From the NCBI RefSeq assembly GCF_009914755.1, contig NC_060926.1: 64,000 nt of DNA; one strand, written 5' to 3'. This stretch comes from the human T2T-CHM13v2.0 reference genome, Homo sapiens. Positions 27,985 through 27,996 of this stretch are shown here, in pieces (the first letter of the stretch is position 1; every line of letters begins with the position of its first letter). The notes below the pieces were generated by a model. That model worked only from the letters and a program-made list of their open reading frames with translations, was not told the DNA's origin and did not search any database. Made by a program: the position numbers and the translations under genes.

Positions 27985-27996
27985 TCTCTAGATATC
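27985..27996 (-). CDS. EXOC6B: Candidate 12-nt alternative microexon of EXOC6B (inserts ISRE)
   Basis: ttctctctcccactgaccttccgccctag|GATATCTAGAGA|gtaagt: pyrimidine-rich acceptor and consensus GTAAGT donor. Frame-preserving in phase 2: AA+G ATA TCT AGA GA+G gives LLEK-ISRE-MKDT with no stop. Confidence 0.72.

What the first reader, a model, noticed from the sequence alone, without database searches (positions are those of the whole stretch)
27985..27996. Hidden 12-nt in-frame microexon inserting ISRE near the Sec15B C-terminus
Seen: a strong acceptor (pyrimidine tract, CTGAC and TTTAAC branch-like motifs, TAG) and a perfect GTAAGT donor enclose exactly 12 nt. In the phase-2 frame of the last intron this changes LLEK|MKDTS to LLEK-ISRE-MKDTS. 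It is invisible to the ORF track. Inference: four residues add about one helical turn and a possible phospho-serine in the C-terminal helical domain, the region of Sec15 proteins implicated in Rab binding. I recall EXOC6B isoforms differing by four residues, so it may already be annotated.
Basis: partly seen in the sequence, partly recalled or inferred. Interest (0 to 1): 0.7.

Follow-up and report, generated by a model that had tools for sequence, protein, structure and literature searches.

The report
Annotated four-residue microexon in exocyst EXOC6B
A real, already annotated 12-letter optional exon adds four amino acids near the end of the vesicle-docking protein EXOC6B; a matching mini-exon sits at the same spot in the sister gene EXOC6, and the two are likely switched on by different splicing factors in different cell types.

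Summary
The exon is real and not hidden: RefSeq lists 27985-27996, and human EXOC6B isoforms 3 and 5 differ only by ISRE. A four-residue insert at this site occurs in placental mammals and an opossum (ISRE), chicken and crow (ISRV) and a teleost-clade EXOC6B (LSRP). The paralog EXOC6 has one too (VYRG/VHRG in fish and snake), and human EXOC6 has a 12-nt counterpart in the same intron and phase that likely is the published retina-enriched, MSI1-responsive microexon HsaEX0023471. The exon therefore likely predates the EXOC6/EXOC6B duplication. Regulation appears to differ: EXOC6 has a downstream UAG cluster, while EXOC6B has three downstream ACUAAY (QKI-type) motifs and no nearby UGC. QKI control is inferred only. 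A paper reports an oligodendrocyte-specific Exoc6b exon, but I could not confirm it is this one. AlphaFold predicts that ISRE lengthens the penultimate helix from 17 to 21 residues. The site lies beyond the crystallised Sec15 C-terminal fragment, so the Rab-binding link is weak. Verdict: already known exon; the paralog link and likely regulatory split are the modest new part.

The parts
27985..27996 (-). 12-nt frame-preserving cassette microexon, encodes ISRE after K770 (771-774 of an 815-aa form, numbering derived from P0023/P0107)
   Evidence: RefSeq table in the finding
27997..28059 (-). Acceptor: TAG, pyrimidine tract (16 of 20), AG-free stretch back to -63; branch-like TTAAC 28044-28040 (the likelier branch point, inferred) and CTGAC 28013-28009; no TGC within -30..-3
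27977..27984 (-). Donor GTAAGTAT (intron side matches consensus; its TAA is the stop of the 53-nt variant)
27781..27916 (-). Downstream QKI-type motif cluster: ACTAAY at +69 (27916), +121 (27864), +199 (27786); further ACTAA at +81 and +129
   Evidence: function inferred
27944..27996 (-). 53-nt extended form of the same exon using a GC donor (GCAAGT at 27943-27938); protein would end at ISRE, stop 37 nt before the last junction
   Evidence: RefSeq table
29166..29278 (-). Upstream constitutive exon (end of Pfam Sec15_C, profile positions 312-347 of 348)
21067..24546 (-). Last exon (coding 24420-24546, 41 residues: end of penultimate helix, loop, final helix)

Best explanation
This is an annotated, vertebrate-conserved 12-nt cassette exon of EXOC6B that adds ISRE in frame, is predicted to lengthen the second-to-last helix of Sec15B by one turn, likely descends from an exon older than the EXOC6/EXOC6B duplication, and is likely switched on by QKI bound downstream. 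Shown: exon, frame, both isoforms annotated, four-residue inserts at this site in both paralogs. Predicted: Ile takes the hydrophobic position normally held by Met771, so the helix face is kept and the last loop and helix are pushed one turn outward. Inferred: inclusion is high in QKI-rich cells (oligodendrocytes, perhaps muscle), while the EXOC6 copy is driven by MSI1 in photoreceptors. Inferred and weakest: the longer helix changes an exposed partner-binding surface at the tip of the Sec15 C-terminal region rather than the Rab11-binding fragment itself.
For: Human isoform pair differing only by ISRE. Of 420 stored proteins 206 matched the junction pattern: 170 no insert, 30 ISRE, 2 ISRV, 1 LSRP, 2 VHRG, 1 VYRG, so all 36 inserts are four residues, start with I/L/V and have R third. 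Tree without the insert puts the unnamed LSRP protein in the teleost EXOC6B clade (99/96) and the unnamed VHRG protein beside bird EXOC6 (96/95). Human EXOC6 last intron, same phase, holds a 12-nt exon-like stretch giving VYTG with a tandem TAG-CAG acceptor, fitting the published 12-nt (PMC9303857 supplement rows) and 15-nt (PMC6952364 supplement row) forms that share a 3' end. AlphaFold: helix 429-449 with insert, 760-776 without. Three ACTAAY within 204 nt downstream, the only such cluster in 42.9 kb of sense strand; 2 wholly inside 200 nt against 0.11 in shuffles, P 0.004. QKI motif downstream goes with inclusion (PMC9122611 passages). An Exoc6b exon is oligodendrocyte-selective in mouse (PMC6952364 passages).
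Against: No RNA-seq, CLIP or knockdown data for this exon were seen. Exoc6b does not occur in the 2 supplementary files of the qkI-deficient oligodendrocyte study (PMC5548867). The oligodendrocyte exon's coordinates were not found in text or tables, so it may be another exon. One 3-motif ACTAAY cluster also occurs on the antisense strand of the window, so such clusters arise by chance. In a Snap23 minigene, deleting QKI motifs alone did not change splicing (PMC12064062). No insert in the EXOC6B proteins sampled from 6 afrotherians, 5 amphibians, 11 squamates and 2 cartilaginous fish (isoform samples, so weak). The two microexons share only 6 of 12 nt, and human EXOC6 has Thr in place of the conserved Arg. 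Annotated orthologous isoforms may partly be projected from each other. The two folds used different-length queries and an alignment mostly without the insert.
Confidence: 0.55

Rival explanations
1. Real, conserved exon but regulated otherwise: a neural (SRRM3/4, PTBP1-repressed) or broadly low-level microexon; the ACTAAY cluster is incidental.
For: Long pyrimidine tract with a CTCTCT element at -27 could bind PTBP1 (motif recalled). Exoc6b absent from the qkI-deficient brain tables. The zebrafish exoc6 12-nt exon falls from PSI 73 to 41 in srrm3 mutant eyes, so the ancestral exon may be SRRM-dependent.
Against: No TGC within -30..-3, nearest at -90; strong rather than weak acceptor; EXOC6B has 0 occurrences in all 18 supplementary files of the retina/srrm3 study; no TGCATG within 400 nt either side.
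Confidence: 0.27
2. The inserts in EXOC6 and EXOC6B arose independently in the same intron; they look alike only because four residues starting with a hydrophobic one is what the helix tolerates.
For: Only 6 of 12 nt identical between the human copies; no insert seen in sampled sharks, amphibians or non-vertebrates.
Against: Same intron, same phase, same length, Arg third in all 36 protein inserts, present in fish and amniotes for both paralogs.
Confidence: 0.1
3. One reading: the insert directly remodels the Rab11/Rab8/Rab10-binding surface or adds a regulatory phospho-serine.
For: It lies in the helical C-terminal region that protrudes from the exocyst and binds partners such as myosin V in fungi (PMC13546919 passages). 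Ser is invariant in EXOC6B inserts.
Against: Site is 32 residues past the last aligned residue of the crystallised fragment 2A2F and outside Pfam Sec15_C; Ser is not kept in EXOC6; no phosphorylation data seen.
Confidence: 0.15
4. Splicing noise or a near-neutral exon kept only because it is frame-preserving.
For: Loose splice-site patterns are no commoner than chance (14 vs 17.2); no functional study found.
Against: ISRE unchanged in 30 proteins from human to opossum and ISR kept in birds; paralogous exon is tightly retina-enriched.
Confidence: 0.04

Closest known systems
RefSeq EXOC6B isoforms with the 12-nt exon (e.g. human isoform 3, P0028; isoform X3, P0107)
   Same: The same exon and the same ISRE insert.
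   Different: Nothing; this is the annotated feature. No functional or tissue study of it turned up in 10 searches.
EXOC6 retina-enriched microexon HsaEX0023471 (hg38 chr10:93057906-93057917; Ciampi 2022, PMC9303857; 15-nt form in Ling 2020, PMC6952364)
   Same: 12 nt; likely the stretch I find in the same intron and phase of the paralog; four-residue insert after LLEK.
   Different: Retina PSI 39 vs 1.7 elsewhere, MSI1-responsive; 9 TAG in 200 nt downstream vs 1 for EXOC6B; TGC at -21 and weak tract (10 of 20 pyrimidines) vs none and 16 of 20. Match to the published coordinates rests on length, tandem acceptor and orthologous peptides; no liftover was run.
QKI-activated microexons in trafficking genes, e.g. 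Snap23 (PMC12064062)
   Same: Frame-preserving microexon in an exocytosis protein with ACUAA(C) motifs in the downstream intron.
   Different: QKI dependence was tested for Snap23 and is only inferred here; no RBFOX motif nearby here.
Neural SRRM3/SRRM4 microexons
   Same: Length, frame, conservation, vesicle-transport gene.
   Different: No UGC near the acceptor; not in the retina or srrm3-mutant lists.

Membership tests
Cassette microexon (3-27 nt) | Length 3-27 nt between canonical AG and GT | tested here: met
   12 nt, TAG / GTAAGTAT
Cassette microexon (3-27 nt) | Both inclusion and skipping isoforms exist | tested here: met
   P0028 minus ISRE equals P0023; by annotation, not by reads
Cassette microexon (3-27 nt) | Frame-preserving and conserved | tested here: met
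Cassette microexon (3-27 nt) | Junction reads and tissue PSI | not testable with these tools
   No RNA-seq access; not found in the supplements searched
Neural SRRM3/4-dependent microexon | UGC motif just upstream of the acceptor | tested here: not met
   None in -30..-3; nearest at -90
Neural SRRM3/4-dependent microexon | Inclusion responds to SRRM3/4 | tested here: inconclusive
   exoc6b absent from srrm3-mutant tables where exoc6 is present; absence only
Retina-enriched MSI1-responsive microexon (RetMIC) | UAG cluster downstream | tested here: not met
   1 TAG in 200 nt (shuffle mean 2.3); the EXOC6 copy has 9 (mean 3.7, P 0.006)
Retina-enriched MSI1-responsive microexon (RetMIC) | Listed as retina-enriched | tested here: not met
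   0 occurrences of EXOC6B in 18 of 18 supplementary files
QKI-activated exon | ACUAAY motifs in the downstream intron | tested here: met
   +69, +121, +199
QKI-activated exon | Skipping after QKI loss or a QKI CLIP peak | tested here: inconclusive
   Not in PMC5548867 supplements; PMC9122611 supplement unreadable
QKI-activated exon | Motifs conserved in orthologous introns | not testable with these tools
   No other vertebrate genome held
Sec15 C-terminal crystal fragment (2A2F; Rab11 binding recalled) | Insert lies inside the solved fragment | tested here: not met
   Alignment ends at P0107 residue 406 (chain has 8 more residues); insert at 439-442

The most novel reading that the evidence does not exclude
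One ancestral 12-nt exon was kept in both Sec15 ohnologs and rewired to two different cell-type splicing programs: MSI1 in photoreceptors for EXOC6 and QKI in myelinating oligodendrocytes for EXOC6B. Two cell types that must deliver huge amounts of membrane (outer segments, myelin) would then use the same one-turn extension of the Sec15 tail helix to make a specialised exocyst.
Probability: 0.3. Interest if true: 0.55.

Novelty: already known. Interest (0 to 1): 0.27.

Why it matters
The exon itself is catalogued, so finding it changes nothing. What may be useful: it marks the last two helices of Sec15, a part with no solved metazoan structure among the PDB hits, as a site tuned by splicing in both vertebrate paralogs for hundreds of millions of years. 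If the QKI/oligodendrocyte reading holds, it gives a clean test of how paralogous microexons change regulators and a candidate exocyst variant for myelin membrane delivery. EXOC6B is a disease gene (SEMDJL3; PMC12089063 passages), and cDNA rescue work should state which isoform it uses.

Tried and rejected
Paper searches (10 of 10 used) found no study of this exon. The one EXOC6B+microexon hit (PMC7017197) uses the word only as an aligner option; PMC10231643 concerns circRNAs; bioRxiv 2025.06.16.659513 names an Exoc6b splicing event without saying which. Supplement searches for Exoc6b were empty in PMC5548867, PMC12064062, PMC13059442, PMC7821500 (whose tables may not carry gene names) and PMC9303857. 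The EXOC6B row in PMC6952364 Supplementary Data 2 is another exon (63 nt, testis-high), and none of the 10 chr6 rows of its mouse table is Exoc6b. One recalled paper id was not held. Last exon alone has no PDB match; its Pfam YaaD hit (E 0.12) is noise. My first scan of the EXOC6 intron missed the paralogous exon because its donor filter excluded GTATGT; the wider scan found it. The tandem-acceptor pattern is not unique (14 sites in 20 kb of EXOC6), so it supports but does not prove the match to the published exon. Two odd gene models (P0009, P0166) have other residues at the junction and did not fit the counting pattern. No complex prediction was run.

Full report
Observation. On the minus strand, 27996-27985 is a 12-nt stretch after a TAG acceptor and before GTAAGTAT. 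Joined by coordinates to exon 29166-29278 and the last exon, it inserts ISRE in frame between LLEK and MKDTS; the flanking introns are 1,169 and 3,438 nt. The tract has 16 pyrimidines in 20, the next AG upstream is at -65, and branch-like motifs sit at -48 and -17. By sequence alone the case is modest: the loose pattern is no commoner than in shuffles (14 vs 17.2 in 42,934 nt) and the strict, after-the-fact pattern occurs once vs 0.11. Of 25 AG-12nt-GT stretches in this intron only this one has both a GTAAGT donor and a pyrimidine tract.

It is annotated. The RefSeq table lists the exon. Among the 120 best of 647 hits to the last exon, 28 carry ISRE (27, plus P0116), including human isoform 3 (P0028), which equals isoform 5 (P0023) plus ISRE. 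RefSeq also lists a 53-nt form with the same acceptor. It reads through the GT donor to a GC donor; the TAA of the first donor stops the protein right after ISRE, 37 nt before the last junction. By the recalled 50-55-nt rule it would escape decay and lose the last 41 residues. None of 420 stored proteins ends that way, but the searches were keyed mostly on the last exon.

Conservation. Three protein searches and one representative search (each listing only its best 120 or 150 hits) left 420 proteins; 206 matched the junction pattern: 170 without insert, 30 ISRE (placentals including sloth, and the opossum Gracilinanus), 2 ISRV (chicken, Hawaiian crow), 1 LSRP, 2 VHRG, 1 VYRG. A tree built after removing the insert places the unnamed LSRP protein in the teleost EXOC6B clade and the unnamed VHRG protein beside bird EXOC6; the named VYRG (Characodon) and VHRG (Notechis) proteins group with EXOC6, a clade with only 80/82 support. 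No insert was seen in the sampled EXOC6B proteins of 6 afrotherians, 5 amphibians, 11 squamates and 2 cartilaginous fish, nor in the non-vertebrate proteins printed; these are isoform samples and say little about the genomes. Predicted isoforms may partly be projected between species.

The paralog. Human EXOC6 has its last intron at the same place and phase. One of its 5 AG-12nt-GT stretches gives K-VYTG-M, next to VYRG/VHRG in other vertebrates, and has a tandem TAG-CAG acceptor that also allows a 15-nt form. Supplement rows of PMC9303857 list a 12-nt EXOC6 microexon, HsaEX0023471, with PSI 39.08 in retina, 1.67 in other tissues and 3.65 in neural samples, dPSI 82 on MSI1 expression in HepG2 and 0 to 10.6 on SRRM3/4; a 12-nt zebrafish exoc6 exon drops from 73 to 41 in srrm3 mutant eyes. 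A supplement row of PMC6952364 lists the 15-nt form with the same 3' end, 0 in control and 61 with MSI1; the two MSI1 results probably come from one dataset. I identify these with the stretch found here from length, tandem acceptor and peptide; no liftover was run. Same intron, phase, length and a shared hydrophobic-x-Arg-x pattern in both paralogs from fish to amniotes make one origin before the duplication the simplest reading (inference, about 0.85).

Regulation. The flanks differ. EXOC6: TGC at -21, weak tract, 9 TAG in 200 nt downstream (shuffle mean 3.7, P 0.006). EXOC6B: no TGC within -30, strong tract, 1 TAG, and ACTAAY at +69, +121, +199 plus ACTAA at +81, +129. That is the only 200-nt window with three ACTAAY in the 42.9-kb sense strand, though one such cluster also lies on the antisense strand of the window. 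Passages of PMC9122611 and PMC12064062 give ACUAA(C) as the QKI motif and link downstream position to inclusion; the latter also reports that deleting such motifs alone left a minigene unchanged. Passages of PMC6952364 and its preprint report an Exoc6b exon used selectively in myelinating oligodendrocytes, cells known for high QKI (recalled), but the coordinates are only in a figure I could not see. Against: Exoc6b is absent from the supplements of the qkI-deficient oligodendrocyte study, although a 12-nt exon is easily missed. I put QKI activation at about 0.55 and identity with the oligodendrocyte exon at about 0.45. Supplements I could not read (PMC9122611, file 7 of PMC6952364, all bioRxiv supplements) may bear on this.

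Protein. AlphaFold2 on human P0107 (with insert; mean pLDDT 91.9) gives one helix 429-449 through ISRE at 439-442, a short loop, then a final helix 454-482. Walrus P0103 (no insert; pLDDT 87.0) gives the matching helix as 760-776, four residues shorter. The residue after the LLEK-like motif is L, V, I or M in 60 of 72 relatives, and all 36 inserts begin with I, L or V, so the insert likely keeps the helix face and moves the tail one turn out. The fold matches the Drosophila Sec15 C-terminal crystal structure 2A2F, but sequence alignment to it ends at residue 406, and Pfam Sec15_C ends with the upstream exon. That 2A2F is the Rab11-binding fragment is recalled, not read. Direct remodelling of the Rab site is therefore unlikely; an effect on another partner of the protruding C-terminal region, which binds myosin V in fungi (PMC13546919 passages), is the better guess and is untested.

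Verdict. A real, annotated, deeply conserved microexon. The link to the EXOC6 retina microexon and the likely MSI1-versus-QKI split did not appear in my 10 searches, which cover only open full texts; VastDB may already record both exons. Novelty: already known. Interest 0.27.

Noticed in passing
window 27944-27996 (-), donor 27943-27938: RefSeq's 53-nt form of the exon uses a GC donor; the TAA inside the first donor ends the protein at ISRE, 37 nt before the last junction, so a tail-less EXOC6B lacking the final helix may escape decay.
   Followed up: partly
L006, G000:C10:93937797-93937811 (+): Human EXOC6 paralogous microexon encodes VYTG, with Thr where fish, snake and bird-type EXOC6 have Arg; tandem TAG-CAG acceptor gives 12- and 15-nt forms; downstream intron is rich in TAG.
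   Followed up: yes
proteins P0184 and P0198 (also P0179, P0187 vs P0200): Unnamed non-vertebrate Sec15 fragments identical on both sides but differing wholly in 5-6 residues of the loop between the last two helices, a few residues past the vertebrate microexon site. Looks like an independent pair of mutually exclusive short exons; no DNA seen.
   Followed up: partly
proteins P0023, P0028 vs P0107: Human EXOC6B isoforms 3 and 5 lack a 45-residue stretch inside the Sec15 C-terminal domain that P0107 has; a second alternative exon outside the annotated part of this window.
   Followed up: no
window 62626 (30 nt) and 57085 (22 nt), minus strand: Two further acceptor + GTGAGT patterns with pyrimidine tracts in the large EXOC6B intron; unannotated and within chance expectation.
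   Followed up: no
PMC6952364 Supplementary Data 2, hg38 chr2:72438766-72438828: A different, 63-nt EXOC6B exon with PSI about 22 in testis and under 5 elsewhere; outside this window.
   Followed up: no
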